NCBI RefSeq assembly: GCF_026210795.1
Contig: NC_089430.1
Span: forward strand, 5,022,001 to 5,086,000
Source: Rhizophagus irregularis
Taxonomy: Eukaryota
Reading direction: 5' to 3'
DNA length: 64,000 bases
The notes under the pieces were generated by a model. It saw nothing but the letters and a program-made list of their open reading frames with translations. It was not told the origin of the DNA and did no database searches. A program made the position numbers and the translations under genes. Position 1 is the stretch's first letter. The number at the start of each line of letters is the position of its first letter. Shown here in pieces: positions 1,951 through 59,058 of this stretch.

Positions 1951-4900
1951 ATGCTGATTAATTCATATGATTGTGATTGTGATTATGAATGTAATGCAAA
2001 ACGGTTTAAACGAAATTTTAAAAATTGGACTAGTGGTAATAATAATATTGATAAATTTATTCAAGATACCCAGCTATTAGAGCATAATTATTATAAGTTA
2101 CATAATGCTTTAGAATGGATACCTTATGATAAACTTTATGATATCAAATATATTACAGAAGATAATAAATTTGGTAAAGTGTATAGAGCAAATTGGATTG
2201 ATGGATATATAGATATATGGGATCATGAAAATCAAAATTGGGGAAGAGAAGATCAAAATATATTTGTAATTCTGAAAATTATAGATAATCCATCAAGCAT
2301 TACATTAGAATTTATAAATAAGGTATAATAAATTTTCATTTTATGAATTATAATATAAATTAATTACATTGTACTGTGCATTTTGTGAAAAAAAAGCCAA
2401 TTGTTTAAAAACTAGTTAAAATTTTATTTTTACTAATATTTCTAACTTTAATATATTATAGATTGCAGTGCCTCATAAAGTTTTTGGAATAACTCAAGAT
2501 CCAGAAACCAAGAACTATATGGTGGTTTCGAATATCAATAAATGTGGAATATGCTATGCTACATGTAATTCAATGTGTTTTCAACGAAATTTTGAAAATT
2601 GGACTAGTGGTAATAATGATATTGATAAATTTATTCAAGATATCCAGCTATTAGATCATGATAATGCAAATGAAGCATTAGAATGGATATCTTATGATAG
2701 ACTTTATAATGTTAATTATATTGCAGAAGATAATAAGTTTGGTAAAGTGTATAGAGCAAATTGGATTGATGGATATATATATACTAGTAGTCGGAATAAT
2801 TATGTTCAAAATTGGATAAGAAAAGATCAAAATATGTTTGTAATTCTGAAAATTTTAAATAATCCAGCAAGTATTACATTAAAACTTATAAATAAGGTAT
2901 AATTAATTATTAAAAGTTTCATTTTTTCGTGAATTAATGCAATTGTACTGTGATATTTTGTGAAAAAAAATCGCCAGTTGATTTAAAAACAAATAATGAA
3001 AATTTTACTTTTGCTGATATTTCTACTTTAATATATTGTAGATTGCAGTATCTTCTAAAGTTTATGGAATAACTCAAAATCCAGAAACCAAGAACTATAT
3101 GGTAGTTTTAAAAGATACATGTGAAAAATGTAATAAAGTGTGTAATTCAATACATTTTCAACGAAATTTTAAAAATTGGACTAGTGGTAATGATGATATT
3201 AATAAATTTATTCAAGATACTCAGCTGTCAGTTCATAATTATTATGAGGTAAAAAATGCATTAGAATGGATACCTTATAATAGATTGTATGATATTAAAT
3301 ATATTACAGAAGATAATAAGGTTGGTAAAGTGTATAGAGCAAATTGGACTGATGGGCGTATAGGTAGTGATAATTATAGGATTGAGATTTGGAATGATAA
3401 CCAAAATTGGATAAGAAAAGATCAAAATATGTTTGTAATTCTGAAAATTTTAAATAATCCAGCAAGTATTACATTAAAACTTATAAATAAGGTATAGTAA
3501 ATTTATTAAAAGTTTCATTTTTTTGTGAATTTTAATATAAATTAATCGTACCATTTATGAAAAAAAATTGCCAAATGCTTAAAAAGCAAATAGTTGAAAT
3601 TTTAATTTTTACTAATATTTCTAACTTTAAATACATTATAGATTGCAGTATTTTCTAAAGTTTATGGAATAACTCAAAATTCAGAAACCAAGAACTATAT
3701 GGTAGTTTTGGAAAATATATGTGAAAAATGTAATAAAGTGTGTATTGCAATTCATTTTCAAAATAGATTCATACATTGGACTAGTGGTAATAATGATATT
3801 GATGAATTTATTCAAGATACTCAGCTGTCAGTTCATAATTATTATGAGGTAGAAAATGCATTAGAATGGATACCTTATGATAGACTTTATGATGTTAAAT
3901 ATATTGCAGAAGATGATGAGTTTGGCAAAGTGTACAGAGCAAATTGGACTGATGGACATATAGGTGGTGGAAATTGGAAAAGAAAAGATCAAAATATGTT
4001 TGTAATTCTGAAAATTTTAAATAATCCAGCAAGTATTACATTAAAACTTATAAATAAGGTATAATAAATTTATTAAAGTTTCATTTTTTTAGTGAATTGT
4101 AATATAAATTAATTGTATCATTTGTGAAAAAAAAAAAAATTGCCAGATGTTTAAAAAACAAATAGTTGAAATTTTTATTTTTACTAATATTTCTAATTTT
4201 AAATACATTATAGATTGCAGTATCTTTTAAAGTTTATGGAATAACTCAAAATCCAGAAACCAAGAACTATATGGTTGTTTTGGAAAATATATGTGAAAAA
4301 TGTAATAAAGTGTGTAATGCAATTTATCTTCAAAATAGATTTATACATTGGACTAGTGGTAATGATGATATTGATAAATTTATTCAAGATACTCAGCTGT
4401 CAGCTCATGATGATGCAGATGAAGCATTAGAATGGATACCATATAATAGATTGCATAGTATTAAATATATTACAAAAGATAATAAGTACAGAGCAAATTG
4501 GATTGATGGTAAATATATATTTGTAATTCTGAAAATTTTATATAATCCAGCAAGTATTACATTAAAATTTATAAATAAGGTATAATGAATTTATTATAAG
4601 TTTCATTTTTTTGTGAATTAATGTAATTGTACTGTGCTATTTTGTGAAAAAAAATTGCCAGTTGATTTAAAAACAAATAGATATATATTTTACTTTTGCT
4701 GATATTTCTACTTTAATATATTGTAGTATAAAGTTTATGGAATAACTCAAGATCCAGAAACCAAGAAATATATGGTAGTTTTGAATGATATATGTGAAAA
4801 ATGTGATGAAGTGTGTAATTCAATACATTTTCAACAAGATTTTAAATATTGGACTAGTGGTAATGTTGATATTGATAAATTTATTCAAGATATTCAGCTG

Positions 4901-13632: not shown

Positions 13633-16021
13633 CTACAGATACTCTCCCATGAGCTTAACCTCAACTTTCTCATCCTTATCTTCAATGATCACAGACTTCC
13701 AACCCTCCTGGCAATATACGTTTATCCAATGATGATCAGCACTATATTCTGGATTATTATTAGGAAGACCAGGATGTCGAATGTCAATGATAGCCCATTC
13801 CTTGCTGATCTTCCTAATAGGTTTATAGATTTTATTGATACGACTCTTGTGGTCAGATGCTTTTTCACCATCCCGTAGTAACTCAATTGCCCAACTCCGG
13901 CCGTCACCCACAAAGAAATCCATATATCCACTTGACCCCCAGTATGTTCCAACATCAGGAGAAATGAATATGTCAGCTGGTAGGACTTGAGTAGCAGCCT
14001 GATAAAATTCCATTTGCCAAGCGCGCTCCAGAAGCTGACCATCTGTACCAACACAATATGAATTTCGTATAGCCTCAGCATTCATATTTGTGAAGGTTCC
14101 ACGGAGGAAGCTTTTGAAATCTTGAGGAGGAATTATTGGCCTAATGGTGCTCCCCCAACGCCGCTGCAGATAGAGTGCGCGCAAGTAGGGTGAAGCAAAA
14201 TCGAGTTTACCATCTTGTTCACTAAGTAAGTTTGTCCTGACTAGCCTTTTTTCTTTTCCTGATGTGCTATATGACTGTCTGATATTAATGGGTCCTCGGA
14301 ATACCCTATCACAAAGTTCTTCTTCCTCTGGAGTAAGATTTTTAATATGTGCAAACCCACGAAAGCCCTGCAATAATAGGATTAATAAGTACAATAACAC
14401 AATCCTTTTTCCTGGTGCAAAATGAAATTGAGACACTTGCCTCATCTACTGCCCTCATAAACCCATGTGACTTTAAGTACAAAAAAATACTATCAAATTT
14501 CAACGTATCATCATATTTCAGTTGCCGGGAGAAATGATCTCTAATATGATTCATGAAAAATGCGACAAGTCCAGGATGACAAGCTGTTGTGTTACACACG
14601 TATTCCTGTAAATAGTTAATATCATCCTCATCTTCCATATTTTTGAGATGTGTACTGCAAAAGCGTAAAAAATAATCTTTGTATTCTTCCTCAGTGAAGC
14701 GCACGTCTTCTATGCTCCATGTGTTTTCAGGAAGAATCATAAAAGGTGACACATCTATTGTGTAAGTTGCAGACGAAAGATCCCATGCACCCTTGTAGCC
14801 ATATGCAGCAAAGGCAACAATACTTAAGTTACTGATCTGCTGGCACCGCTTCACCGTTTCCCAAAAGACATTACCCTTGTGACGTGAAGCAGTCTCGTGT
14901 TCACCTTGAGGCACATAAAGCATCTAAAATCCAGAAATGTCAGAATCCATATTAATTTAAAACAAGGAGATAATCTTCATACCTGAACTTCGTCAACAAT
15001 AAATATAGTCCGAATATGACCACACTCATCTTGAAATTTTTTCCAAGTTATGCTCATAAGTCGCTCAAACTCCTCCTCAAATGTCCAGGTTCCACTAGGG
15101 ATTCCCATCCATAAGAGTGAGATTCGAATTACTCGAATATTAGGATCTTTAACTAGGTGTTGTTCTAATAGTTGGCCCAATGAGGTCTTTCCAGACATGG
15201 GTGGAGACCGAACGAGTAAAAAACCTACTTTACTGATCTTCTCTACAAGCTTTTGGATTGTCTGCTCACGATGGCAAATATCAGGACTGTTGAGGTTGAT
15301 TCCTTCATAAGTACCAACTCTTTCTCCTTCAGTTGCCAAGATCATAGTTCCACCAATGCCTCCTATAAAGGAGTGAGATATTAGGATGGATTAATATGAA
15401 AACAATGCAAACATATACTGAAGTAGTCATACCTAGTCTTGGTGTATATGACAACTTTACATCTATATGATTAAAAAATATTCAATATTATTAATTAAGA
15501 CACAACTTAACGAAACAAGAAAAACATTTGTAGTATTATTAAATGGTAGACAGAATATTGATGTTTCTGTTCATCAAGACTAAACACACCTGTTAATTTG
15601 CTTTTTTTTCGATCTTGGTCTTCATTAGCATAATCGAATAAAGAAAATTATAGGGTGTGAGATAACACACGAATTTCTTGTTCGAGAGGTAAACCATTTG
15701 GAGATACTTACCAGTGGTGGCGGGCAACTCCACAATGATGTGGATGTGCTCACTGGGAGGAGGTATTTTGAAAACTTGTCCAATAGTTTTGAGGTCGCTG
15801 ACCAATTTCTCACCTCTGAACATTTCTTTGATGTTGATTCCCTCATGTATCTCATATTTTTCATTTTCAGGAATGTTAACTCGCCATAATATCAGTTTAT
15901 GTGCGGGTTCGACCAATCCTGCCTGCTCCTTGATGGCTCCTTTGAGATGCCCAATAGTCTTATTTGTATCGAAATCAACAGGAAACGCATTCTCTTCGCC
16001 TAAAATGATACAGCCTAACAT
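13633..16021 (-). CDS. Crinkler (CRN)-family effector: CRN N-terminal domain + P-loop NTPase + PD-(D/E)XK restriction-endonuclease-like domain
   Basis: N-terminus LGCIILGE-NAFPVD...TIGHLKGAIK...LILWRV...HIHIIVELP (LFLAK- and HVLV-equivalent motifs). Walker A SPPMSGKTS, Walker B IFIVDE, C-terminal ERAWQMEFY...GYMDFFV...WAIELLRDG. Approximate exons 16021-15712, 15619-15590, 15463-15434, 15363-14983, 14923-14441 and 14368-13633. Confidence 0.85.
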
Positions 16022-16204
16022 AATGTCGGTAGATCTGATAAATCAATTCGAGTTAAAAACAAGGTTCAACAAGGTAATTTTTCAGTATAATACACTATAG
16101 ATACAATGTTGGAGAATTTTCCTCGAATTTAGTTTGTAATAGCGAAGAATAATTTGACATTTTGATTATTTATTATATATATATATGTGTTTTCATAAAC
16201 TAAT

Positions 16205-26547: not shown

Positions 26548-29500
26548 TTAAATGTTTAGTCGAGAAATACCAATTTGCTGAGAAATATTAATTTGCTGAA
26601 AAATATCAATTTGCTGAGATAATGATGCTAATTAATAAATAAAGTTTCCATTAATAATTTTACAACTAATTTAAATACTCTTTAATAACCATTACCTGAA
26701 GATTCCATGCTAATTATATCATCGTTTTGATTATCATAATAATCGACAGAATTTTTTGGTTCAGGAAGATTATTAAAATTAAGCAATCTACTGGTATAAA
26801 TATCTTCTGAATGTGTTTTATGCGATAATCCTAAGTTGGTTGAAGGTGCACTACTGACCGCCAAATTCTTATTGATATTTTCTGCTTCTCTAGTTTGTTT
26901 TTGTATTTCTGTATAATTATCAGTTACATAATGATTTTTAAACATAGTAAATAATTCTTCAGACCATTGACTTAAGATTTTTTTGATTTCTTCTGCTTTT
27001 GGTCGACTTAACGGATTTGAATCTAAGCATCTTTTAATTAAACGGACAATTAATTGTGGTACTTTGATATTAAACCTTGGTCTAAGTCCTTTACAAATTC
27101 TTATTGCTAAATTATGATCATGATTTACATCATGATATGGAGGTAATTCAGAAATTACTTCATACATTATAATACCAAAACTATAAATATCTGAGGCTTT
27201 GGTATAATTTTGTCCTCGTAAAATTTCAGGAGCCATATAAGCCAAAACACCATATGTACTATTTTTTGTGTTTTCTGATGCATCATAGTCTGCAGGTTTA
27301 CATAATCCCATATCAGTTATACAAGTGAGATCTTTGAACCTTAGTATATTGCCAATATGTAAATCTCGATGAATTAATTCATTTTTATGAATACCTGCAA
27401 GCCCTCGTGCAATGCTATGTAAATAATTAATTTTATCATTAAGATATAATTTGGTATGATTTTTATTTAAATAATTTCGTAAATCTCCATCTTCTGCAAA
27501 ATCTAAAACCATAGCATAATTTTTTGTTTCTGGATCTTGAGTTATTCCATAAAGTTTAACAATACACCTACCCAAATTTACTTTACAATGTGATATAATC
27601 TAAAATAAAATGCATATATATTAGCAAAATTAAAATATCTACAAATTTTCAAATAATAAAATTTGTTACCTCATTCATAAACTCCAATGTAACATTTTTT
27701 GAATTATTCAAACTTTTTAAAGCCACCAACATATTTTGATTCTTTCTTCTCCAATTTTGATTTTCATCATCCCATTTATCTATACATCCATCAATCCAAT
27801 TAGCCTTATAAACTTTGCCAAATCCACCTTTTGCAATATATTTAATATCATAAAATCTATCATAAGGTACCCATTCCAATGCATGGCATGTATAATAACT
27901 ATGATTTGATAGCTGGATATCTTGAATAAATCCATCAATATCGCTATTACCACTTGTCCAATTATTGAAATTATGTTGAAAATATATTGCATTACACACT
28001 TTTTTACATTTTTCACATAAATCTCTTTGAACAAGCATATAATTTTGCGTTTCTGGATCTTGGGTTATTCCATAAATTTTAACAAATCCTATACTCTGCA
28101 ACTGAAATAAATAACATTGAATATATTAGTAATAATTAAATTTTATAAATTATACTAAATGAAAATAACTTTAGTACCTTATTCATTATAAATTTTGATT
28201 CAATAGATTTTGGATTAGTACTTAAATTATTTAAACTTACAAACATATTTTGGTGTTTTCTTTCCCAATTTTGACTTTCCTTATTCCATCGGTTTATATA
28301 TCCATCAATCCAACTTGCTCTATATACTTTATTACTATTTTTTGTAATACATTTATTAATATTATAAAATTTATTATAAGGTATCCATTCTAATACTTCT
28401 GATAATTGATAGGCTTTATGTAATGATAGTTGAGAATCTTGTATAAATACATCAATAATGTTATTGCCACTAGACCAATTTCCAAAATTTTGTTGAAAAC
28501 GTATTGCATTACATACATCATTACATATTTTACATGTTAAAACTACCATGTATTTTTCTGTTTCTGGATCTTGGGTTATTCCATAAACATTATAGGAACC
28601 TATAGTCTACAAATGAAATGGATGTACTAAATATAATAACAAAAATCAAAATATTTTATTAAATAATAGTACTAATTATACCTTATTTAATTTACTAACT
28701 TTTGAAATGTCTGAACTTTTCAAAATCATAGATATATTTTGGTCTTTTCTTTTCCAATTTTGATTTGTATAGTTCCCATAAACATTATATATAGAAACCT
28801 ATAATCTACAAATAAAATAGATGTATTGAATATAATAGCAAAAATCAAAATATTTGATAAATAATATTAATTATACCTTATTTAATTCACTAATTTTTGA
28901 AATATTTAAATTTTTCAAAATAATAGATATATTTTGGTCTTCTCTTATCCAATTTTGATTTACATAGTCCCATTTGTTTATATATCCATCAATCCAATTT
29001 GCTTTATATACTTTATTACTTTTTTTTGCAATACATTCAATATCATAAAATTTGTTATAAGGTATCCATTCTAATGCTCTTGATAATTGATGGGTTTTAT
29101 ATGATGATAGCTGAGAATCTTGAATAAATCCATCAATAATATTATTACTGCTAGTCCAATTTCCAAAATTTAGTTGAAAGTATATTGCATTACATACATC
29201 ATTACATTTTTTACATGTTAAAACCACCATGTAATTTTCTGTTTCTGAATCTTGAGTTATTCCATAAACTTTATAGCAACCTATAGTCTACAAATGAAAT
29301 AGATATATTTGAATATACCAACAATAATCAAAATATTTGAATAATAATATTAATTATACCTTATTTGTAAGTGTTAACTCACTAACTTTTGAAATATTTA
29401 AACTTTTCAAAATTACAACCATATTTTGATGTTTTCTTTTCCAATTTTGATTTTCATCATCCCATTCATTTACATATCCATCAATCCAACTTGTTTTATA

Positions 29501-30690
29501 TATTTTATCTTTTACAATACATTTAATATCATAAAATCTATCATGAGGGATCCATTCTAATGCATGGTATACGTAATAATTATGATCTAGTAATAGTTGA
29601 GTATCTTGAATAAATTTATCAACATAATTATTACCACTTGTCCAATTTTTGAAATTTCGTTGAAAATGTATTGCATTACATATATAATCACATTCTTCAC
29701 ATATATCTTTCTGAACCCTTATATAATTTTTTGTTTCTGGATTTTGAGTTATCCCTATTGTTAACTATAAGTATAATAAATTAATAAGAGGTATACTGTT
29801 TAAAAAATGATAAAATAACTTGCCTTGTTTACAAATTCTGATATATTATATTTTGGATCACTTAAATCTTTTAAAATTACAGACATATTTTGATCACTTC
29901 TTTGCCAATTTTGATTTTCTTTATTCCAATTATTTATGCATCCATCAATCCAATTTGCTCTATATACTTTATTATTATTTTTTACGATACATTCAATATC
30001 ATAAAATTTGTTATAAGGTATCCATTCTAATGCTTTTGATAATTGATAATTTTTATGTGATAATAGTTGAGAATTTTGAATAAATTCATCAATAATATTA
30101 TTACCACTAGTCCAATTTCCAAAATTTAGTTGAAAGTATATTGCATTACATATACTATTACATTGTTTACATGTTAAAACCACCATGTATTTTTCTGTTT
30201 CTGGATCTTGGGTTATTCCATAAACTTTATAGCAACCTATAGTCTACAAATAAAATTGATATGTTTGAATATATTAACAAAAATTAAAAATCTTATTAAA
30301 TAATATTAATTATACCTTATTTGTAAGTGTTAATTCACTAATATTTGAAATATTTAAACTTTTTATAATTACAACCATATTTTGATGTTTTCTTTCCCAA
30401 TTTTGATCTTTATCATCCCATTTATTTATGCATCCATCAATCCAATTTGCTTTATATACTTTGTCTTTTTCAATGCACTTAATATTATTAAATTTATCAT
30501 AAGGTATCCATTCTAACACTTTTTCCGCATCATCATTATGTTGAGTATTTTGGATAAATTTATCAATATCATTATTACCACTAGTCCAGTTTTTAAATTT
30601 TTGCTTAAACCGTTTTTCAAAACAAATTTTATTACATTTCATACATATCTCATCTGACTTGTTGAAGGCACCAATAATTTGAAAATCCAT
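26548..30690 (-). CDS. TKL-group protein kinase with 5 full and 1 collapsed degenerate N-lobe modules followed by a complete kinase
   Basis: Module exons at about 30690-30316, 30244-29824 (GC donor), 29764-29360, 29287-28877, 28798-28682 (39 aa) and 28606-28178. The intact N-lobe exon 28101-27670 has KGGFGKV/VALK. Kinase exon about 27599-26695 has HRDLHIGN, DMG and APE. The tail exon with QQIDI repeats ends in TAA at 26550-26548. Confidence 0.85.
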
Positions 30691-37751: not shown

Positions 37752-40413
37752 TTAATTGTTTTGGATAATTATTCCTTTAGATTTATTACTTTGATCTAAA
37801 AAAAAAGTAGAAGAAAAAGAAAATAGAAATTTAGATATATAAATATGAATAAAAAAGAAAATTATAAATATAAACTTAAAATTTACAATCTTCATTAATA
37901 TTCAATTGAAAAACATCAATTTGTAAAGATAAAGATGCTGTTTAATAGATAAAATTTTATTAGCCTTTTTATAATTAATTTATATTTTTCTTTTATCAAA
38001 CAATACCTGTAGATTCCATTTTAATCATATTATCATTTTGTTTATCATCATATTCGTCAGAATTTTTTTCTCCGGAAAATATATTATCAGTAATTTTCAA
38101 TTGAGAAATATCAATTTGTAAAGATTCTATTTAGAGTAAATTAAAACTTATTAATACTTTAATTAATTTGAATATTTTTTCGTAAAAAAAAGTATCGAAA
38201 ATTTATACCACTATTATTATTCTTTTCATAATAATCATCAGAAATTTTTTGTTCAGGAATATTATTATCTTCATTTTTCAATTTATGGAAATCAATCTGT
38301 AAGGATTCTATTTAATAATTTAACAAGTTATTAATAATTAATTTTATGTTGATTTAATACATTAAAATTAGTTGATACCTGAAGCTTTCATGCTTATTAT
38401 ATTATCATTTTGTTCATAATAATCGACAGAATTTTTTGGTTCAGGAAGATTACTATAACTAAGCAATCTACTAGTATAAATGGCACCTGAATGTGTTTCA
38501 TATGATAATCCCAGACTAGTTGAAGTTATAATACTAGTTGATAAACTATTATTAAATTCATCTGCTTCTTTAATTTGTTTGTATAATTCTGTATGAAAAT
38601 CCTGATGCGTTATAATTCTATGCCATTTGTACAAAATACTATCAATTTCTTTTGGTGTTGGACGATTTAATGGGTTTGCATCTAAACATCTTTTAATTAA
38701 ATGCACAATTAATTGTGGTACTTTAGTATTGAATCTTGGTCTAAGTCCTTGACAAATTTTCATTGCTAAACTTATGTCATGGTCTACATCATAATATGGG
38801 GCAATCCGGACATTAATTCATATATAATTATACCAAAACTATAAATATCTGCAGCTTTGGTATAATCTTTGTTTTGCAAAATTTCAGGAGCGATATAAGG
38901 TAAAACACCATATATACCATTTTTTGTATTTTCAGAATTTACAGGTTTACATAATCCCATGTCAGCAATCTTGGCGTAATTAGATACTAATAAATTACCA
39001 GGATGTAAATCTCGATGAATTAATTCATTTTTATGAATATGTTCAAGTCCAGATGCAAGGTATTTTAAATAACTGAACTTATAATTCCAACTTAATTCTT
39101 TGTAATTTTCATCTAAATAATTTCGTAAACTTCCATATTGTGCATAATCCAAGACCATCACATAATTTTTTGTTTCTGGTTCTTGAGTTATACCATAAAA
39201 TTTAATAATTTTATCACTGTCGACTATTTTATAATGCAACATAGCCTATGTAATAATAAAGTTAAAAAAATAAAAAATTAATTTTAATAAAACTTAAAAA
39301 AGTTTTCATTAGACAATGAATAAAATTATACCTCATTTATAAATTTACTATTAATATCTTTTGAATTATTTAAACTTTTCAGAGCCACAAATTTAAGTTG
39401 ACCATTCCTTTCCCAAATTCTATTATATATATCCCATTTGACAATATATCCATCAATCCATTTTGCTCTATATACTTTGCCAAATCCACCTTTTGCAATA
39501 TATTTAATATCACAAAATCTATCATAAGGTATCCATTCTAATGTTTTTGATATGTAAGAATGATCTGATAGCTGACTATCTTGAATAAATTTATCAATAT
39601 CATTATTACCACTGGTCCAACTATTAAAATATTGCTGAAAAATGATTGCCTTACATATTCTACATCTATTATCCATAACGGCCATATAGGTTTTTGTTTC
39701 CGGATCTTGAGTTATTCCATAATTTGCATGTAATGTTGTAATCTAAAAATATTAAATGTTGGTAAAATTTAAAATTTCATAATTCATTGAAAAATAATTT
39801 TATTGAGCTTTTTCAAGTTACTTGATACGTGATTATGATTATTGATTATTTATTATTATTACTAAAATGGAAATGATCTGCGAATGTGGCTAATCATATT
39901 TCTATATATCTCGTATTTATTAAATAATCAATAATCACAATAATCATCACACATCAGGTGATTCATAGGGGTAGCACAATTTTTGAAAAGCGCGATAATA
40001 TATCGTACCTGAGTCCTAAAATCTGATTCGATATTATTCGGATCATCAAAGGTTTTTAGAATTACAAGTAAATTTTGATTAATTCTTTTCCAATTATTTT
40101 TCTCATTATCCCAATAAATTATATTTCCATCAATCCAATTTGCTTTATACATTTTACCAAACCTACTTTCAACACTTTTAATATTATAAAGTCTATCATA
40201 AGGTATCCATTCTACTGCAGCTTTTGATACACCATAATGGTAATGGCCAAAGATATGTGTTGATAGCTGAGTACCTTGAATAAATTTATCAATATTATTA
40301 TTACCACTAGTCCAATTTTTGAAATTTTGTTGAAAATATTTTGCATTACATTTATGGTGACATTTTTCACATATATCATTCAAATTCATATTATGATAAT
40401 TCCAAGGTATCAT
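37752..40413 (-). pseudogene. TKL-group kinase with one degenerate N-lobe module and a 1-nt frameshift in the kinase C-lobe
   Basis: Exons about 40413-40009, 39742-39332 (KGGFGKV, VALK) and 39245-38378 (HRDLHPGN, DMG, APE). SGLP-PYYD is broken at about 38800, where a C run has 4 C and 5 are needed. ESLQID tail exons run to TAA at 37754-37752. The break could be a sequencing error. Confidence 0.8.
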
Positions 40414-40826
40414 TATTTTCTCAAAATAAAAACTTTAATAATAACGATTTTAAAGTTTGGTAACAAAAAATATTGAACTATGAATACGATAAATATATTT
40501 TTATATTACGAATTTAAATCAAGTTTGTAAAATAGAAGGGTTTAATTTCATATATTTTTATTTTCACATTTATATTTAATTACTTTAAATATTAAGTATT
40601 TTACTTGTACGACTCTACTAAATTTCGTACTTTCGTACGAATGATATTAATTAATATTGTAATAAATACAATGGCGAAGTACTGTTTTGTACGACCTGAA
40701 TAAATTATGTGGCTTTCGGCTAAAATTGAAACGATCCTTTTCCGTTATTTATACTTCATGATCGGCAAAATATGAAACAATTAATTAACCTTTTTGCTGA
40801 TTAACTTCAAATATCAATTTTTTTTT

Positions 40827-41720: not shown

Positions 41721-43210
41721 TACGAAATAAAAGTGTTGAACAATAAATTCGGAAGTATAAATTTTTTTAAAAAAGAAAAGTTAATATTTCATAATTATTT
41801 TGCTACTAAATTTCGTACATGTACTACTTTTAAAGCGTATGAAACTACAAATGATATTAATAATATGGTATTTACATCAAATTAATTGATGATTTAAATT
41901 AAAATAAGTCACCTATAAATCTAATTGATCATCGACTCTGAAATTTAACTTTCTAATTAAACAAGGTGATAAAGTATTTTATATTTGAATTTACATTAAA
42001 AATATTTAGTGCTCACCTAAAAGATGAACACACTATGTATACCATCAATAATCTAAAAATTTGTACATGAAAGGAAAATAAAAGTAGAAAATGCCTAGCA
42101 CATGATACTATTATTTATGTATAGCACATGTCCTTTTTCATACATATTTAGACATCTTTGTCAATGAACCCACCTTAAACCCACCTTACATAAAAAACAA
42201 ATCTGAAAAAATAAATAGTAAAAACGAAATAAAACTATAATAATTATCCTAAAATAAAATATAAACTAACAAACATTAAGTAAACAAAACAAAATTGAAG
42301 ACTTAGAAAGTAAACCCTTCATTATTATATATCAAATTCCAATTTCATATTAACAATGACAACAGAAAAATTTCAAAATACAATCATATGTTTTTTTGAA
42401 GTTTCATTTTACTTTGATCAAATCCAAAAACATCTTTTTGATAAAATTGAAAGATTACTATATTTTAAAATATCATTTCCACCTTCTAAACATACATAAT
42501 CGCTTAATCATATGATTATTTGCTTTATTATAGTAATTAGGCAAAATCAATTTATTATAACTTACAACTTAATAAATAAATATAAATTTATCAATATATT
42601 TATACTTTAAAACTCACTAACTGTATCTAAATTGCCCTAGTTGGTTTTAACAAAAAAAAAGTGACATTTAAAATTATTCGAAGTATATATTACGTATTAA
42701 GAAATTTTTCTTCATGATTTTGCTGTGGCAACAATGAGGCTTGATGATTGACATACATTTCAGACATATGTGCAAAATTTGTTTGTTATACATACAATGC
42801 TTGTACTATGATCACTTTTGTACACAATGCATTTTGCATAAATAAAGGCGTTTAATAAAAAAAAGAAAAAAAAAGTTATTTACATTATCTTTTCCAATCA
42901 GAAAGAATTTCAATATAATTATATAGTAATGGCTCTTATTAGTAATGATAAAGGTAATAATCATATATAATATAAACTAATATTTTTAAACAAATTTACT
43001 ATATAATAAAACTAGTTTCTGGTAATATTGAATTTGAAGGAAACGGTTCTAAGGAATTCAAAGAAAGTGGCTTTGAAGAATTTGAAAAAAGTAGTACCAA
43101 GGAATCTAAAGGTATATTATACATACTAAATATTAAATTTTTATTTGTAATACATTTAAATACTATTTATAATTATACCTTACTATATAATATACAAAAT
43201 ACAAATATAG

Positions 43211-45577
43211 CTTGTAAGTTAATAGGTTATCTTATAATTGAATAATAATGGAATTACTTATCATTTTTATTATATTTCTAGTGATTAATAATACTATAGC
43301 CAGTAAGTTATTAGTTATTTAAATTTTTAATTCTTTATTTATTTTACATAATATTTAAATAATTAAATTGAGCAAATTCTTTATTTAATTAACCATTTAA
43401 TACTAATTAATTGTATTACAGATGGTAAGTTACAATATCATATTTATTTGTTTAATATTCAACTAATTATATTCTTAATTTAATAATTTAAATAACTAGA
43501 TTGTAAGCAACATATTTAATTTGCAGTAAATACTTTATATTATATTTATATTTAACTAATAATTAATTAATAATATTAGGGTGTAAGTAGACCCTATATA
43601 GGGGTCAGGTGATGAAAAAAGTTTGCTGTACGCATTTTTTCAGGGCCGGAATTATGATAATGTCAGTCGGTTACTATAATAGGAAATAAAATTCTGACTG
43701 GCATTATCAAAAATTATCTAAAAAGGAAAGATTTTCATAATTTCAAAATACGCAAACTCAAACCTGACCCTTTTATATATATTTCTGGGTCCTGTGTAAG
43801 TTATTGATATCTATATTTCTATTATTTAAACTCACTAAATTCTTTATTTTGTAATTTTTCTTTTAGTTAGTAAGTTATAAGTTATTTATTTAATTCTATT
43901 ATTACTTATTGTTATAATATTTACATATAAACCAAACTAACTAAATTCTTTATTTAAAATATTATTTAATAATTAGGGAGTAAGTTATTTATTTAATTCT
44001 ATGTTTACTTATTGTTATAATATTTACATATAATTTAAATTAACTAAATTCTTTATTTTAAAAAATTATTTAATAATATAGGGAGTAAGTTATATATTTA
44101 ATTCTATTATTATCTAATATTTACGTATAATTTAAACTAACTTTAAAAAAATTATTTTGTAATTTCTTTCAGTTAGTAAGTTATGAGTTATTTATTTAAT
44201 TCTATTATTACTTATTGTTATAATATTTACATAATTTAAACTAAGTTCTTTACTTAAAAAATTATTTAATAATATAGAGTGTAAGTTATTATTTATTCAA
44301 TTCTATTATTACTTATTGTTATAAACTTATAATATTTACATATAGTTTAAAACTACTAACTAAATTCTTTATTTAAATAGATCGTAAGTTATAGGTTATT
44401 TATTTAATTCTATTATTACTTATTGTTATAATAACTAAATTCTTTATTTTTGTAATTTCTTTTAGTTAGTAAGTTATAAGTTATTTATTTAATCTATTAC
44501 TACTCTCTGTTATAATAACTAAATTCTTTATTTAAATTATTTTGTAATTTCTTTTAGTTGGTAAGTTATAAGTTATTTATTTATTTCTATTATTACTTAT
44601 TGGTATAATATTTACATATAATTTAAACTAAATAGGAAGTAAGTTATTTATTTAATTCTATTATTAATTATTGTTATAATATTTACATACAATTTAAACT
44701 AACTTCTTTATTTAAATAGATTGTAAGTCATAAATTATTTATTTGATTCTATTATTACTTATTGTTATAATATTTATATATAATTTAAACTAACTAAATT
44801 CTTTATTTAATAATATAGTGTGTAAGTTATTTATTTAATTCTATTGTTACTTATTGTTATAATATTTGCATATAATTTAACTAAATTATTTATTTAAAAA
44901 TTATTTAATAATATAGGGAGTAAGCATCTTATTATTACTTATTGTTAGTATAATATTAACATATAATTTAAACTAACTAAATTCATTATCTAAAAAATTA
45001 TTTAATAATATAGGGAGTAAGTTATTTATTTAATTCTAATATTGTTATATTATTTACATATAATCTAAACTAACTAAATTCTTTATTTAAAAAATTATTT
45101 AATAATATAGGGAGTGAGTTATTTATTTAATTCTATTATTATTTATTGTTATAATAACTAAATTCTTTATTTAAAAATTATTTTGTAATTTCTTTAGTTG
45201 GTAAGTTATAAGTTATTTATTTAATTCTATTATTACTTATTGTTATAATATTTACATATAATTTAAACTAACTAAATTACTTATTTAAATAGATCGTAAG
45301 TTATAATTTATTTATTTAATTCTATCATTAGTTACTTATTGTTATAATATTTAAACTAACTAAATTTTTATTTATAAAAATTATTTATTAATATAGCTTG
45401 TAAATTATTTGTTATTTCTATTGTTATATATTTTATAAATATTTATTTGTTAATTGAATTCTTTCATATAAAATTTCTGTTACTTTAGTTGGTAAGTTAT
45501 GAAAGATAGGTTGTTATTATATATATTTATACAAAACTAAGACATATATTATATTAAATTTCTATTTAAATTTTAGA
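43211..45577 (+). other. Array of 23 three-nucleotide micro-exons plus one 1-nt exon; the intron units form a roughly 95-bp degenerate tandem repeat
   Basis: AG|NNN|GT at 43211 CTT, 43300 CCA, 43422 ATG, 43500 ATT, 43580 GGT, 43867 TTA, 43977 GGA, 44082 GGA, 44173 TTA, 44278 AGT, 44381 ATC, 44466 TTA, 44558 TTG, 44636 GAA, 44720 ATT, 44819 TGT, 44917 GGA, 45014 GGA, 45111 GGA, 45198 TTG, 45293 ATC, 45397 CTT and 45489 TTG. AG|A|GT at 45577. Donors are mostly GTAAGT. Confidence 0.8.
43589..43793. mobile_element. MITE (205 bp) inserted just after the donor of micro-exon 5
   Basis: Ends AGACCC.../...GGGTCCT flanked by duplicated GTGTAAGT (43581-43588, 43794-43801). Core CAGGGCCGGAAT is shared with 53334-53530 and about 22790-22835. 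Confidence 0.75.
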
Positions 45578-45701
45578 GTAATTGTTGATTTTGATCTTAC
45601 ATTTCAGTGTAATTTTTAATATGAATTTCAATGATAAATTTAATTATTTAAATTTATATATAGATTTGGAAAAAGCGGAAATACAATTATGGATAATTTT
45701 A

Positions 45702-45980
45702 GGCCGTTCCAAATTAATAATTAGTTTAACGTCCTTTCTGGCCAAAAATTTTGAGGGGGGGGGAGGGGATAATTTAAACAAACATGAAAATTAAACATAA
45801 TAAAAATTTCGGAAATTTTTGGTAAAATCGGGAATTCTCGGTACTATTAAATTTTAGTAAAGGAGGGGGTGGTTTAAGCATATTTAAACATATCAAACAT
45901 ATATGTTTAAATCACCCTTGAATTTTTCAAAAATAGAGGGGGGGGGAGGACGTTAAACTAAAGATTAAATTGGAACGGCC
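45702..45980. mobile_element. PIF/Harbinger (Tourist-like) MITE, 279 bp, inside a kinase exon
   Basis: TIR GGCCGTTCCAAATTAAT / ATTAAATTGGAACGGCC. TTA TSD (45699-45701, 45981-45983). Excision restores ...MDNF-ILEKNLKWIPY. Confidence 0.92.
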
Positions 45981-48900
45981 TTATTTTGGAAAAAAATTTA
46001 AAATGGATTCCTTATGATAAATTTAAAAATGTTAAGTATCTTGATAAAGGAGGATTTGGTACTATATATAAAGCTATTTGGTTTTATAATGATAATAATG
46101 AAGTAATTCTTAAATGTCACAATAATTTAAGTAAAAATTTAAATGAATTTTTAAATGAAGTATGATAATATATTATTTATTTTTTTATTTTGAATTATAA
46201 TTTATTTATACTAATATATTATTATGTTTTATAGTGGGAATATCATAAAACTTGTTTAAATTCATATAATATTATTTATTTTTATGGATTTACAAAAAAT
46301 CCAGATACTTTGAAATATATGGTAGTAATGGATTATGCAAACAAAGGTAATTTAAGAGGAAACTTAACAAGAATTGTCAAAAGTGATTGGTATCAAAAAT
46401 TATATATGTTATTTGGAATTATTTCTGGGCTTAATTGTATACATAAACAAGATCTTATTCATTGTGATTTTCATGATGGAAATATTTTAAACCATAATGA
46501 AAGTAAAATTTATATTAGTGATTTAGGATTATGTAAACCTTTAAAATCATTTTTGAAAAAATATGATATTTATGGTGTTATACCATTTATGGCACCAGAA
46601 GTTTTAAGAGGCAATCCTTATACTACAGCTAGTGATATATATAGTTTTTCTATTATTATGTGGGAATTTACATCCGGGGTACCACCATTTAATAATAGAG
46701 CACATGATTTTCAACTTAGTTTAAGTATTTGTGAAGGTGAACGCCCTGAAATTATTGAAAATACTCCACAATGTTATGTAGATTTGATGAAAAAGTGTTG
46801 GGATGAAAACCCATTAAAAAGACCATCTTCTAAAGTATTATTGAAGAGTGGGTTTTTCTTTCAAATAAAGTGAAAGTTGAAGATATTAATGAAGAATTAA
46901 AATACAATATTATGGAATTTATAAATGCACCAATTGGGCAAAGCTATAATCTTACTACTGAATCTCATCCACAGGCATATTATAAAAGTCGCTTTCTTGA
47001 TTTTACTAGTAAACAATTAAATGAAATTCTTGAAAGTAGAGATTTACAAGCTTATTATTCAAGTCAAACTACTAGTGGAAAAGTGAATGAAATTCTTGAA
47101 AGTGAAGATTCACAAACTAGTGTAAAAGTGAATGAAATGAGTAAAAATTTGGATGATTGTATATTTAATTTGAAGTCATTAGGTATGTAATAGTATATAA
47201 AAAGAATTAATTTTGCAAATTATTTATGTGAAATTAATTTTATTTATTTAATTATTTAGATATTAAAACAGATAAAAAATAACTAGTAATTATTTGTGTT
47301 TTTATAAGAATTTATAGTTTTTTACTTAACAAAATTGTTATATTTATTTAAACACTAAGGCTAGAGTATCAGTAAAATATTTTACAATATTCTTAGTTTG
47401 TAATTTAAATAATTCCTTTTTTTATATTTAATTCATATATGTATTCTCTTTTTTTAGAATTATTTAAACACCAAAGCTAGAATAGTAAATATTTTACAAA
47501 TTTCTTAGTTTGTAATTTAAATAAATCTTTTTTTTTAACTTTCCAATTATTAAATATAAATTATCAAAATAATAATATAAGTATATAAACCCATTTCCAA
47601 TGTATAAAATCAAAATAAATAATGTAAAATTTTTTATATTAATTACAATGGCTGATTGTATTTTATTTATATTGTTAACTTTTATTCTTAATAATATTAT
47701 TTGCAATCTGCAAAAATATTCTTTACCTTTTTAAAAAATTATTTTATTAAGACAACATTATACATAACTATACATAAGTATTTTAACTTTATATTAAGTA
47801 CTGGCTAATAGTCAAATTGTAAAGTATTTTTTAGAACTTTTTTGTTTACAGTATCTGTAAATTATTTTTACGAATTTATTATGAGTTTTTTTTACAGATC
47901 ATATTAACATTTCCTAATAAAGATGCATATGGAAAATATCCAACATGTCTAAGTGACAAAAAAGCAATTGATTTTACATTTGCCTATTCAATTCAGAAGG
48001 TTATCTTTGTCTCATAATCTAATTTTAAATAAATTTTCTTAATAATCTTAACACCTTCTAATCAATTTAATATGTAAAAGATATTTGCACAAAATATGGT
48101 TTTTTAATTATGCTATAAAAAATTTTTATTACTAGTTGATCATAATATTCATATATACAAGTTGTTTGGAATAATATCTATAAAAGTAATCAAAGCAATA
48201 AATATTAAAGAACACCTAATAAAATTTACATCCCGATTTCAGCGTATAATGTTGATATTCCAATGAAAATCATAATTGAATAAAATAAATGAAGAATAAA
48301 GTATATATTATTATTCATGGAAAAACTTCATTATGTTGTATATGGGGCGAATTTATCCTTTACAGTTAATTTTATTGATCTTTAGATGCAGATTAGCTTA
48401 GTGCTGTAGTATATTGGTAATGACAAATATAGTAATTTATATCATAATCTCAACTTTGCTTGAAATTTCTACTTTTTTGATAGGTGGTTGAGTTATATGC
48501 CTATTTCTTTTAAATTTATTAGCACGCGAAAAGAGGGATTGAAGATTTACATTTGATTGGGATTTGGGATGAATTATTAGGAAAATCATCCAATAAATCA
48601 AACATTATGTAGTTATATTTGACTTCATAAAGACCCCCAAAAAATTATTTAATTTGATTTCGTAATTGCAAAAATATCTGTTAAGCATTTTGTTAATTAA
48701 AATCAGCAGAAAATTATGTAATTCTTCTCTTCCATTATCCTGAAAGAAAAGAAGAGAGAGAAAAAGAATTATTGATTTTTCCATTGCAAAAAAAAATTCA
48801 TTGGTTTTCAATCACATAGCTTTAGGATTTGAGGCGGATTCAGAAAATCAAATTAAAATGGGTTTTTTGTCATACAAGCAACGCAGGAATTTCATTTAAT

Positions 48901-54442: not shown

Positions 54443-57400
54443 TTAAGATTTTGAGTCATGGTCTTCAATATTAATTTGTATAGATCCTATGTAATAGAAT
54501 AAATTTGTTAGTAATTTTTTATATGTTTTGAATGTCTTTTATAAGTGACAAATTAATTATACCTGAGTATTCTGAATAATCATCGCTTGTTATACTATCA
54601 CTATTTTTCAATTGAGAAATATCAATTTGTAAGGATTCTATTCATAGAGTTAAATTTTATTAATACATTCTTTTCAAAATTAACTTAAATAATTACTTAT
54701 TTTCTATATTTTCTATTAAACAATACCTGTAAATTCCATGCTAACTATATCATCATTTTGTTCGTAATAGTCATCTGAATTTTTTGGTTCGGGAAGATTA
54801 CTATTACAATTAAGCAATCCACTTGTATAGATAGCTTCTGAACGTGTATTACATGATAATCCTAAACTGGTTGACTTAATTGATAAATTTTTATTTGTTC
54901 CTTCTGATTCTTCAATTTGTTTTTGTAATTCTGTAATTTGATAATCACTTCGTTTATCATGCCATTCACGTATAATTTTATAGATTTCATTTGCTGTTGG
55001 TCGATTTAATGGATTTGCATCCAAACATCTTTTAATTAAATGCACAATCAATTGAGGAACTTTAATGTTAAACCTTGGCCTAAGTCCTTTACAAATCCTT
55101 ATTGCTAAATTATTGTGGTTCATGTCATGATATGGAGGTAATCCAGAAATTACTTCATACATAATTATACCAAAACTGTAAATATCAGCAGCTTTGGTAC
55201 AATTTTGTCCTCGTAATATTTCAGGAGCCATATAAGGTAAAATACCATATGCACTCTCTTTTGAATTCTCTGATGCATTGTAATCTGCAGATTTACATAA
55301 TCCCATATCGGTTATATAAATACGTGTATTGTTATCATAAAGAATGTTGCCAACATGCAAGTCTCGGTGAATTAAATTATTTTTATGAAGAAGATTAAGT
55401 GCGTATGCGATAATCCATAAACAATTAAGCCTATCATACCAATTTAATTTATCATGACTTGTGTTTAAAAAATCTCGTAAACTTCCATTTTCTACATAAT
55501 TCAATACCATCATATAATTTTTTGTTATCGGATCTTGAGTTATTCCATAAAATTTAATAACAGCATGTAGAAGATCATTCACTTTATAATGCCAAGTGAT
55601 CTATAATTAAATAAATATAAATGAAATGCATTGAATTTGTAAAATTTTTTTAAATATAAATTAATCATACCTCGTTCATAAATTCTAATGTAACATTTTT
55701 TGAATTATCTAAACTTTTCAAAGCTACAAATTTATTTTGATCTTGTCTACTCCATTTACATTTTTCATAATCCCAATGCTGCATATATCCATCATACCAA
55801 TTTGCTCTATAAATTTTGCCAAAACCTCCTTTTGCAATATATTTAATATTATAAAATCTATTATAAGGTATCCATTCTAATGCTTTTGATACTTCATAGT
55901 CAGAATGTATTGATAACTGAATATTTTGAATAAATTTATCAATATCATCATTACTACTAGTCCAATTTACAAAGTTTTGATGAAAATGCATTGCAAGGCA
56001 TGTACAGTTGCATTTTTTACATATACTACTTAAAACTAACATATAATTCTTGGTTTCTGGATCTTGGGTTATCCCATAAACTCTATCATGTATCGTAATC
56101 TACAAATGCAATAATTCACTAAATATTGATATTTTCCAATAATATGGTAATAATAATTTACCTTACCTTATTCTTAAATTCTGATGTGATATCATTTGGA
56201 TTGTCTAAAGTTTTCAGGCTTACAAACATATTTTGACCTCCCCTTTTCCAATTATCATCCCAACTTACTATATATCCATCGATCCAATTGGCTTGATATA
56301 TTTTGCTATTCTCATCCTCTGCAAGATATTCAACATTACAAAGCTTATCATAATGTATCCATTCTAATACCTTTGATAATTGGTCAGAATGTGCAGATAG
56401 CTGAGTGTGTTGTATATGAATATTAATATTATCATTACCACTAGTCCAATTTTCAAAATTTCGTTGAAAATGCATTGCAAAACATATACAATTACATTTT
56501 TCACATATTTCATTACAAACAAACATATAATTCTTGGTTTCTGGATCTTGAGTTATTCCATAGAATGTTTGGTATATCATTACCTTACAATGATAAATTG
56601 TTAAAATATATTTTTCAAAAATATTATTATATAACAAATTAACATACCTTATTCGCAAATTCTGATGCAATATTATTTGGATTATTTAACATTTTCAGAA
56701 TTATAAACATGTTTTCACCTTTTCTTCCTATTTTGTGATCTTCACTATCCCAATAACTTATATATCCATCAATCCAATTAGCTAGATATACTTTGCCAAA
56801 CTCATCATCTGTAAAATATTTAATACCACAAAATCTATCATAAGGTATCCATTCTAATGCTTTTGATACTTTATAGTCAGAATGTATTGATAGCTGAGTA
56901 TCTTGAATAAATTTATCAATATTATTATTACCACTAGTCCAACTTTCAAAATTATGATGAAAATGTGTTGCAAGGCATGAACTGTTGCATTTTTCACATA
57001 TTTCATTACAAACTACCATATAAATTTTTGCTTCTGGATCTTGAGTTATTCCATAAACCTTATGATTAATTGCAATCTATAAATAAAATGCATTAATGAA
57101 ACTGATATTTTAAATTTTTTATCAATTAAATAAACTTAATATACCTCATTTATAGTAAATTCTGGTGTAATATCATTTAGATTATCTAAATTTTTCAGAA
57201 CCACAAACATATTTTGTCCTTTTCTTTCCCAATTATTAAAATCCCAATGCAATATATATCCATCAATCCAATTTGCTCCATACATATTTCCAAAATTGCT
57301 ACTTGCAATATATTTAATATCATTAAGTCTATCATATGGTATCCATTCTAATGCCTTGTAATCATAACAATTTGATAGCTGAGTATCTTGTATAAATTTA

Positions 57401-58450
57401 TCAATATGATTATTACCACTAGTCCAATTTTCAAAATTATGCCGAAAATGTATGGTGTTACATACATGACTACATTTTTTACATGCTAAAACTACCATGT
57501 AATTTTTTGTTTCCAGATCTAGAGTTATTCCATAAAATTTATGATGCATCGTAATCTACAATATATATAAATGTTAAAAATTAAATTTTTTTTATAGTTT
57601 CATTGATAATAAGTTACATTACCTTATCCACAAATTCTGATGTAATAGCATCTGGATTATTTAAACTTTTCAGAATTACAAACATGTTATTATTATATCT
57701 TTTACAATTGCTATTATCCCAATATGATATATATCCATCAGTCCAATTGGCTAGATACACTTTGCCAAGCTCATCTTCCATAAAATATTTAATATCATAA
57801 AATCTATCATAAGGTATCCATTCTAGTGCCTTCTTTACGATATAAACAGTATGATCTGATAACTGAGTATTTTGAATAAATTTGTCAATATTATTATTAC
57901 CACTAGTCCAATTTTCAAAATTTCGTTGAAAATGTATTGCAAAACATATACTGTTGCATTTACTACATTTTTCATTACAAACAACCATATAATTCTTTGT
58001 TTCTGGATCTTGAGTTATTCCATAAACTTTATGGAGTACTGTAATCTACAAATATAATTAACAAAATAAATACATTAATAAAATCTAATTATTACAAATT
58101 TAGTAAGTTTATTTCACCTCTTTTAATTCTAGTGCAATATTATTTGGGCTATTTAACCTTTTTAGAATCACGAACATATTTTGATCTTTTCTTCTCCAAC
58201 TCAAATTTTTATCATCCCATTTATCGATAGGTCCTTCATTCCAATTCGTTCTACTGAACTTGTCTTTTATAATATAAAATCTATCATAAGGTATCCATTC
58301 TAATGCTTTTGATACTTCATAGTCAGAATGTATTGATAGCTGAGTATCTTGAATAAATTTATCAATATCATTATTACCACTAGTCCAATTTTTAAAATTT
58401 TGTTGAAAATATTTTGCGTTACACACACATTTACATTTGTTGCATTCCAT
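54443..58450 (-). CDS. TKL-group protein kinase with 5 degenerate N-lobe modules followed by a complete kinase
   Basis: Module ORFs/exons at 58109-58450, 57614-57988, 57136-57549, 56639-57019 and 56158-56670. Intact N-lobe at 55665-56042 (KGGFGKI, VALK, EFMNE). Kinase 54716-55582 has HRDLHVGN, DMG and APE. Tail exons ESLQIDISQL and GSIQINIEDHDSKS end in TAA at 54445-54443. Confidence 0.87.
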
Positions 58451-59058
58451 ATTTAATTCTTTATTGGTATCAATAGTACGTAATGAATTATTTGACAGTC
58501 AAGGCTTGTTTAAATTATAATGAATTCAAGTTAGTAGAAAACGAAATTTAAAAAAAAAATTTACAAAGAACTTGCCACATAAGTTATAAGTGTAATTTTG
58601 CGATTACATCATAATTTCGTCATATTTTGCTGATATTCCTGTATAAGTTAACATCAATCATGAATCGGTGTCGATCGACATTTATTTAAAAATCAAGTTT
58701 ATAGTGTTGGTATTTTATTATATGATATTTCAAAATGCTAAAATAATATGATTTTATATGAAAAAATATTTGTTACATTACATAATTGTATCAAAAATTC
58801 TTTTTTTTTTATGGAATTATTGAAGTTTATATAATTAAGTAATCTTAAATTTTTTAAATTTTCCAAATGACTATTATCTAATTCATATTTTGGGTCACTA
58901 AGTTTTTTGATTACACTAAAATTACATTTATTTGAGTATTTATTAATACCTTATAGAAAATTTCTTAAATATACACGGGTGATTCGAAAACATATCACGT
59001 GACCTTATAACAAAATTAATAAATATTGTAACTGATCAGCGTAAAAAATACCTATTTT

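What the first reader, a model, noticed from the sequence alone, without database searches (positions are those of the whole stretch)
43211..45577. A kinase N-terminus spelled out in 23 consecutive 3-nt exons
Seen: 23 successive AG-NNN-GT units, 19 with donor GTAAGT (others GTAAGC x2, GTGAGT, GTAAAT), plus CTAAC/CTAA branch-like motifs. Spacers are 75-119 nt, except one enlarged by a MITE, which is the size of ordinary introns in this window. The upstream exon (43016-43111) ends in phase 1. Concatenating G + the triplets gives GCT TCC AAT GAT TGG TTT AGG AGG ATT AAG TAT CTT ATT GGA AAT TTG TGG AGG AGG ATT GAT CCT TTT = ASNDWFRRIKYLIGNLWRRIDPF with no stop, running into the kinase exon. So 2.4 kb of apparent AT-rich satellite would encode about 24 residues. 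Established: micro-exon genes exist in Schistosoma and isolated 3-nt exons exist in animals and plants. I know of no description of a long uninterrupted run of one-codon-sized exons fused to a fungal kinase. Inference: this is a micro-exon gene system that ORF finders and spliced aligners would miss.
Basis: partly seen in the sequence, partly recalled or inferred. Interest (0 to 1): 0.96.

Follow-up and report, generated by a model that had tools for sequence, protein, structure and literature searches.

The report
Kinase tip built from three-base exons
In a root-symbiotic fungus, a kinase gene carries a row of 23 three-base exons plus a likely one-base exon; RNA of sister genes shows the first of these tiny exons spliced together, and the row likely gives these kinases a variable front end, as in truffle immune genes, although this particular copy is broken.

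Summary
The array is real: 23 AG-NNN-GT units at 43211-45491. A likely 1-nt exon at 45577 completes a 70-nt insert joining a leader to a Rhizophagus tyrosine-kinase-like exon in frame. In poly(A) RNA, 92 reads leave the leader at its donor and continue with the joined first triplets, as do contigs of three further runs; partly spliced forms occur. These reads come from paralogs or alleles, not this copy, which carries a MITE in the kinase exon and a frameshift. Fourteen related metagenome arrays exist; all 5 with downstream DNA lead into a kinase, and 0 of 114 phase-1 junctions make a stop (4.0 expected). Public gene models miss or misread the array. The kind is known: codon-sized microexons of Tuber melanosporum NACHT-ANK genes, and this scan noted such arrays before in other genomes. 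New: arbuscular mycorrhizal lineage, kinase N-terminus, split-codon phase, terminal 1-nt exon. Exon skipping and function are not shown. Verdict: new variant of a known kind, interest 0.7.

The parts
42929..42953 (+). Exon 1 with ATG, 25 nt, ends in phase 1
   Evidence: leader equals that of annotated protein P0139; RNA joints from about 42936 into exon 2
43016..43111 (+). Exon 2, acidic Glu/Ser-rich leader, ends in phase 1
   Evidence: RNA matches end at 43111 (92 reads of X24); 28 of 146 fetched proteins carry such a leader
43211..43582 (+). Micro-exons 1-5 (3 nt each) with non-repetitive introns; conserved start of the array (motif A-L-[ND]-D-W-F in relatives)
   Evidence: outside the tandem-repeat calls; joined form seen in RNA of relatives
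43589..43793 (.). MITE-like insertion of 205 nt in the intron after micro-exon 5, flanked by an 8-bp direct repeat that duplicates the donor
   Evidence: Read directly from the sequence; enlarges this intron to 284 nt
43867..45491 (+). Micro-exons 6-23 (3 nt each); introns are tandem copies of one unit while the triplets vary
   Evidence: intron columns mean entropy 0.35 bits against 1.27-1.67 bits at the three exon positions
45577..45577 (+). Likely 1-nt exon (A) between introns of 85 and 86 nt; needed for the kinase frame
   Evidence: 7 of 146 annotated proteins appear to use the donor behind it; RNA depth falls to zero behind this donor; not seen directly in a read
45664..46159 (+). First kinase exon (FGKSGN motif, glycine loop, N-lobe), interrupted by a MITE
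   Evidence: RNA depth starts at this exon
45701..45981 (.). MITE with 35-nt inverted ends and TA on both sides, inside the kinase exon; brings stop codons
   Evidence: arms 45701-45735 and 45947-45981; stop; empty site in 62 reads of X24
46235..47190 (+). Main kinase exon (PF07714, E 2e-34) with a frameshift near 46834, about 10 nt missing relative to paralogs
   Evidence: upstream GT-AG intron 46160-46234 spliced in 55 reads

Best explanation
This is a broken copy of a Rhizophagus tyrosine-kinase-like gene whose relatives splice a row of 3-nt exons between an acidic leader and the kinase domain, and the row likely serves as a fast-changing N-terminal segment that diversifies the family. Shown: the array, its frame, splicing of its first units in relatives, and the same layout before other kinases. 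Inferred: each 75-119-nt intron is recognised across the intron, and the row is probably removed stepwise from the long exons inward, so that every step has a long neighbouring exon. All introns are phase 1, so each triplet ends one codon and starts the next. Tandem duplication or loss of an intron-plus-triplet unit adds or removes one residue without a frameshift, which makes the segment variable between paralogs. Untested: exon skipping within one gene, and a role of the segment in recognition or non-self sensing.
For: RNA: 92 reads of poly(A) run X24, and 7, 5 and 2 contigs of X18, X19, X20, end their match at donor 43111; their loose-end consensus agrees with the joined units 1-6 at 13, 14, 14 and 16 of 18 letters (compared by eye). 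The shared 10-mer across units 3-6 has no exact copy in the window. Partly spliced forms: 2 reads with leader, one triplet and then a donor; an X18 contig joining the leader to unit 1 with intron 2 kept; an X19 consensus that runs into a donor after about six triplets. Relatives are split in DNA too: 10 annotated proteins read from the leader through triplet 1 into the next donor, and 0 of 28 leader-bearing proteins hold the contiguous [ND]DW[FILV] motif. Related arrays: 14 AT-rich loci; 5 of 5 with downstream DNA lead to a kinase; 4 of those 5 enter the kinase frame at the next acceptor through a phase-1 intron; L004 has ATG leader, 18 triplets and kinase on one contig in one frame. Over 15 arrays, 0 of 114 phase-1 junctions form a stop against 4.0 in shuffles, P = 0.006. 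Triplets vary far more than the intron bodies. One transcript class (17 reads) has extra triplets before the conserved motif.
Against: No read proves splicing of this copy: 0 of 261 X24 reads on the leader stretch are 99% alike. Loose ends are cut at 30 letters, so only the first six to nine units are seen, and no read spans the whole array. The 1-nt exon is not seen in a read. The X24 consensus is a mixture (agreement 0.66) and 70 loose-end rows were not shown, so minority direct leader-to-kinase splicing is not excluded. X18, X19 and X20 are RNA by guess only. Phase 0 is also stop-free (0 of 129 triplets). Single skips make a stop in 3 of 99 cases, about the shuffled rate, so there is no sign of selection for skipping. 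The peptide's helical moment is unremarkable (P = 0.19). Acceptor-proximal intron positions also vary. No function was tested.
Confidence: 0.6

Rival explanations
1. The exons are spliced, but the array is a tolerated by-product: an intron-plus-triplet unit multiplied by slippage or unequal crossing-over in a linker where length does not matter, with no selection for diversity.
For: Introns 7-23 are tandem copies and blocks of triplets repeat; this copy is a pseudogene; skip tolerance is no better than shuffled.
Against: Triplets are much more variable than the intron bodies; units 1-6 keep a conserved motif across relatives; such arrays recur in NLR-type and P-loop genes of other fungi.
Confidence: 0.22
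2. The array acts mainly as a brake on expression: 25 introns in a row are removed slowly, so many transcripts keep an intron and give only a short leader peptide or are degraded.
For: Partly spliced forms occur in poly(A) RNA and in RNA-guess contigs; read-through into intron 2 gives a stop within 11 codons; intron 24 has RNA depth.
Against: Spliced-on reads (92) far outnumber reads that keep intron 2 (2 listed; depth about 4 against about 157 on the leader); a brake would not need variable triplets.
Confidence: 0.12
3. The region is an AT-rich minisatellite whose unit happens to contain AG-NNN-GTAAGT and is removed as one long intron or not transcribed.
For: Tandem Repeats Finder calls 43844-45355 a repeat; 81 of 103 metagenome loci found by the pattern were simple repeats or failed the diversity filter.
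Against: RNA carries the joined triplets; direct leader-to-kinase joining is out of frame; spacers vary by indels while the exon stays 3 nt; phase-1 stops are avoided.
Confidence: 0.03
4. The triplets are whole codons (phase 0) giving a Gly/Ile/Leu-rich hydrophobic segment, as some public gene models read them.
For: P0018, P0080, P0084 and P0122 read such segments; 0 of 129 triplets is a stop.
Against: The ATG-started leader ends in phase 1 in the window and in L004, and kinase exons begin in the matching phase in 4 of 5 loci; P0084 reaches phase 0 only by reading through a donor; stop triplets would create a competing splice site with the flanking AG (inference).
Confidence: 0.03

Closest known systems
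Codon-sized (3-bp) microexon arrays of the Tuber melanosporum nank (NACHT-ANK) NLR family (Iotti et al. 2012, PMID 22289772; not held, seen only as cited in passages of PMC4986451, PMC13449251 and PMC10197012)
   Same: Tens of consecutive 3-nt exons in an expanded fungal gene family; in-frame gain or loss of one residue per exon; proposed diversification.
   Different: Here the host gene is a tyrosine-kinase-like kinase, the array is N-terminal to the catalytic domain, the lineage is Glomeromycotina, the exons straddle codons (phase 1) and a 1-nt exon likely closes the row. Alternative splicing, central to the Tuber report, is not shown here. The phase of the Tuber exons could not be checked.
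Scattered 1-3-nt microexons of Coprinopsis cinerea (PMC12230235, passages seen)
   Same: Fungal spliceosomes handle 1-, 2- and 3-nt exons (13, 57 and 27 exons reported there); missing them breaks gene models.
   Different: By those counts they are about one per gene, not a row of 24.
Schistosoma micro-exon genes (MEGs; recalled, no call)
   Same: Rows of very short exons of one phase that can be dropped in frame.
   Different: MEGs encode secreted proteins with exons of mixed sizes; here nearly all exons are 3 nt and sit in an intracellular kinase.
Expanded tyrosine-kinase-like family of Rhizophagus irregularis (PF07714; 2,533 kinases per a passage of PMC10234402)
   Same: The kinase exons are 62-86% identical to most listed Rhizophagus proteins.
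   Different: Public models start at a downstream Met, read the array in part or out of phase, or split the gene: OCT59_028787 (leader, P0124) and OCT59_028788 (kinase, P0003) are neighbouring locus tags.

Membership tests
Codon-sized microexon arrays (Tuber nank type) | Run of many consecutive 3-nt exons with spliceosomal GT-AG introns | tested here: met
   23 units in the window; up to 18 in related loci
Codon-sized microexon arrays (Tuber nank type) | Microexons present in spliced RNA | tested here: met
   Met for the first six to nine units in paralogs or alleles; not for this copy or the whole row
Codon-sized microexon arrays (Tuber nank type) | Alternative splicing of the microexons within one gene | tested here: inconclusive
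   Mixed loose ends (agreement 0.66) cannot be assigned to single genes; skip tolerance equals the shuffled rate
Tuber nank gene family | NACHT and ankyrin domains | tested here: not met
   Pfam finds kinase domains only; the same scan does find NACHT and ankyrin in locus L019
Rhizophagus tyrosine-kinase-like kinases | PF07714/PF00069 kinase domain with close Rhizophagus relatives | tested here: met
   PF07714 E 2e-34; 119 of the 120 listed homologues are named from Rhizophagus, one is unnamed
Rhizophagus tyrosine-kinase-like kinases | Intact reading frame (functional gene) | tested here: not met
   MITE with stop codons in the first kinase exon and a frameshift near 46834
Schistosoma micro-exon genes | Secreted protein made almost wholly of micro-exons (recalled) | tested here: not met
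   Micro-exons give 70 nt of a kinase gene; the leader is acidic, not a hydrophobic signal peptide (by eye; no signal predictor run)
Non-self recognition receptors | Ligand or partner specificity set by the variable segment | not testable with these tools
   No binding or phenotype data

The most novel reading that the evidence does not exclude
Arbuscular mycorrhizal fungi hold a large repertoire of kinases whose N-terminal specificity segment is written one codon per exon and is diversified both in the genome (unit duplication, triplet change) and in each cell by skipping of 3-nt exons, each skip deleting one residue and forming a new hybrid codon. This would be an immune-like receptor diversification system hidden from all current annotations.
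Probability: 0.25. Interest if true: 0.9.

Novelty: new variant of a known kind. Interest (0 to 1): 0.7.

Why it matters
The huge kinase expansion of arbuscular mycorrhizal fungi is unexplained, and part of it is mis-annotated: gene models start after the array, read it out of phase or cut the gene in two. If the array is general in this subfamily, the most variable part of these proteins has been invisible, and existing long-read RNA can test at once whether it is alternatively spliced. A row of 24 exons of 1-3 nt is also a natural test case for how the spliceosome orders intron removal when exons are too short to be recognised. The same layout before a NACHT-ankyrin gene and inside a P-loop gene family of other fungi suggests repeated use in fast-evolving, immune-like families.

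Tried and rejected
No whole genome is held for this window, so no genome-wide count of arrays was possible. No listed run that holds the stretch is on record as RNA; this is not used as evidence. The second read lay listed no loose end before 45664 among the rows shown (382 not shown), so it does not show the 3' units or the 1-nt exon directly. In one search the 1-nt exon was indexed one base off; one search corrects it. Stop-freeness of the single array was rejected as evidence (34% by chance). An amphipathic-helix reading of the peptide found no support (P = 0.19). Selection for skip tolerance found no support (3 of 99). Of 103 metagenome loci, 81 were set aside as simple repeats or low-diversity rows, and L002 was dropped from the 15 AT-rich ones because its introns are only 35-45 nt; L041's count of 18 includes the first three bases of its kinase exon. 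Literature searches for a report in arbuscular mycorrhizal fungi (listings only) showed none; none of the 25 listed of 155 papers held the Glomeromyc- term. Iotti et al. 2012 is not held. Passages of PMC10234402 on exons, introns, splicing and kinases mention no microexons; its supplements were not read. Look-ups of this scan's notes by place, by sequence and by Rhizophagus words gave nothing. No structure was predicted.

Full report
Observation. The window holds 23 AG-NNN-GT units from 43211 to 45491, with 19 GTAAGT, 2 GTAAGC, 1 GTGAGT and 1 GTAAAT donors and spacers of 75-119 nt, one of 284 nt. In 43100-45700 the strict pattern occurs 22 times with three bases between AG and GT, once with one base, and never for the other 11 spacings tested. 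Two consecutive units match 6 times against 0.00 in 100 shuffles. Ordinary introns of this gene are 62 and 75 nt. The middle of the array is also a tandem repeat.

Gene model. An ATG at 42929 starts a 25-nt exon; exon 2 (43016-43111) encodes an acidic leader and ends in phase 1. Joining the leader directly to the kinase exon at 45664, or through the 23 triplets alone, is out of frame. A 1-nt exon at 45577, between introns of 85 and 86 nt, gives a 70-nt insert and one frame into the kinase once the MITE is left out. The kinase is PF07714, and 119 of the 120 listed homologues are named from Rhizophagus. The leader equals that of protein P0139 of R. irregularis. This copy is broken: a MITE with 35-nt inverted ends sits at 45701-45981 and brings stops, and about 10 nt are missing near 46834 relative to paralogs. 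A second insertion (43589-43793) lies in the intron after unit 5, flanked by an 8-bp repeat.

RNA. About 24% of the poly(A) run X24 was read; 261 reads lay on 42850-43590, of which 0 were 99% alike, 18 were 95-99%, 66 were 90-95% and 177 under 90%. They therefore come from paralogs or alleles. Of these, 92 end their match at the donor 43111. Contigs of X18, X19 and X20 (RNA by guess; 7, 5 and 2 contigs) do the same. The four loose-end consensus strings agree with the window's joined units 1-6 at 13, 14, 14 and 16 of 18 letters (compared by eye), all contain ATGATTGGTT across units 3-6, and then diverge from one another. That 10-mer has no exact copy in the window. Another 17 reads (agreement 0.95) carry extra triplets before the same motif. 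Partly spliced forms appear: 2 reads with leader, one triplet and a donor; an X18 contig that joins the leader to unit 1 and keeps intron 2; an X19 consensus that enters a donor after about six triplets; and an X20 contig with leader, 42 unshown letters and the intron before unit 5, a length that fits four triplets plus the start of that intron (inference). At the 3' side, 62 reads show the MITE-free site and 55 the spliced kinase intron; depth in X24, X18 and X19 is present up to the bin holding 45577 and zero in the next bin, while X5, which covers introns, has depth there. This fits use of the donor behind the 1-nt exon but does not show the exon. Limits: loose ends are cut at 30 letters, the X24 consensus is a mixture (0.66), and 70 and 382 loose-end rows were not shown.

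Are the expressed relatives split in DNA? Ten annotated proteins read from the leader through triplet 1 into the next donor and stop, as the window does. None of 28 leader-bearing proteins among 146 has the contiguous [ND]DW[FILV] motif that an intron-free copy would give. Seven of 146 have an ending that fits use of the donor behind the 1-nt exon. Others include array-derived pieces in either phase (P0018, P0080, P0084, P0122, P0144). P0124 (leader) and P0003 (kinase) carry neighbouring locus tags, OCT59_028787 and OCT59_028788, which suggests one gene cut in two.

Related arrays. A filter classed 81 as simple repeats or low diversity, 15 as AT-rich diverse rows and 7 (6 distinct contigs) as GC-rich diverse rows. 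I dropped L002 for its 35-45-nt introns. Of the other 14, nine end in or just after the array; all five with downstream DNA lead to a kinase (tblastn for L004, L015, L029, L041; translation for L072). Four of the five enter the kinase frame at the next acceptor through a phase-1 intron; L029 does so only at an acceptor 160 nt away. L004 holds ATG, leader, 18 triplets and kinase in one frame. Their assignment to Glomeromycotina is inferred from 15-22% G+C and kinase likeness. Over these 14 and the window, 0 of 114 phase-1 junctions form a stop against 4.0 in shuffles (P = 0.006); phase 2 has 22 against 21.2. Phase 0 is also stop-free (0 of 129), which I explain by splice-site interference (inference).

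How it likely works. Shown: the array, the phase, splicing of the first units in relatives. Inferred: each intron is defined on its own by a strong donor, a CTAA-type branch and YAG, and the row is removed stepwise from the long exons inward, as the partly spliced forms suggest. The row grows by tandem duplication of intron plus triplet: introns 7-23 align with a mean column entropy of 0.35 bits over 96 columns, while the three exon positions have 1.27-1.67 bits in units 6-21, though positions just before the acceptor vary too. Each gain or loss changes one residue and keeps the frame. The result is a conserved start and a variable segment of about 20 residues just before the kinase N-lobe. 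A recognition role is an analogy, not a result. Skipping is not shown: 3 of 99 single skips would make a stop, about the shuffled rate, and 1 of 23 in the window.

What is known. Three papers, seen as passages, state that the Tuber melanosporum NACHT-ANK family is diversified by alternative splicing of codon-sized microexons, 'tens' of them (PMC4986451; PMC13449251; PMC10197012); the original paper is not held. Coprinopsis has 1-3-nt exons at about one per gene (PMC12230235, passages). Searches for a report in arbuscular mycorrhizal fungi showed none (listings only), and passages of the long-read annotation paper mention none (PMC10234402; supplements not read). Most subscription papers are outside the library. 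This scan's unchecked notes describe such arrays in kinase-HET linkers, before HET genes and in a flagellate gene, none in Rhizophagus. My own scan found a row of about 30 units behind a hydrolase-NACHT-ankyrin gene (L019), which is the Tuber-type layout, and rows of up to 38 in a P-loop GTPase-like family (L008, L024, L048, L066).

Verdict. It works like the Tuber system but is not a member of that family. It is a new variant of a known kind: new lineage, new host family, split-codon phase, likely 1-nt closing exon, with RNA support in relatives and a broken copy in this window. Interest 0.7; the most novel reading (combinatorial kinase repertoire) has probability 0.25 and would deserve 0.9.

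Noticed in passing
L008, L024, L048, L066/L067 (e.g. L066:2780-5640 +): GC-rich loci with rows of 10-38 diverse 3-nt units and near-identical 77-nt introns in the C-terminal part of a P-loop GTPase-like gene family (weak Roc and MMR_HSR1 hits for L066); the triplets read stop-free in phase 0. Mushroom-type fungus by recall only; splicing not tested.
   Followed up: partly
L019:2900-5750 +: About 30 three-base units with 74-80-nt introns directly behind a hydrolase-NACHT-ankyrin gene: the Tuber nank layout in another fungus.
   Followed up: partly
L017:1-1434 -: 19 three-base units with 59-77-nt spacers filling the whole contig; Ser/Pro-rich in phase 0; host gene unknown.
   Followed up: no
window 1915-7316 (+), 26682-30690 (-), 38368-40434 (-), 54716-58498 (-): Four further tyrosine-kinase-like genes built from up to nine tandem copies of a Cys-motif plus kinase N-lobe exon before one catalytic exon; none has a micro-exon row.
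   Followed up: no
window 43581-43801: The insertion after micro-exon 5 duplicated 8 bp that include the donor, leaving a second GTAAGT at 43796 that could act as an alternative donor.
   Followed up: partly
window 43867-45491: Triplets that begin with T are mostly preceded by a pyrimidine-rich acceptor type, and GGA triplets by an AATATAG type; this may reflect block duplication or splice-site strength.
   Followed up: no
window 13633-16042 (-): ORFs that look like a Crinkler-type N-terminal domain, P-loop and nuclease-like gene (label recalled, no call).
   Followed up: no
L029:669-1300 +: An array of the same intron type precedes a more distant kinase, so the layout is not limited to one kinase subfamily.
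   Followed up: partly
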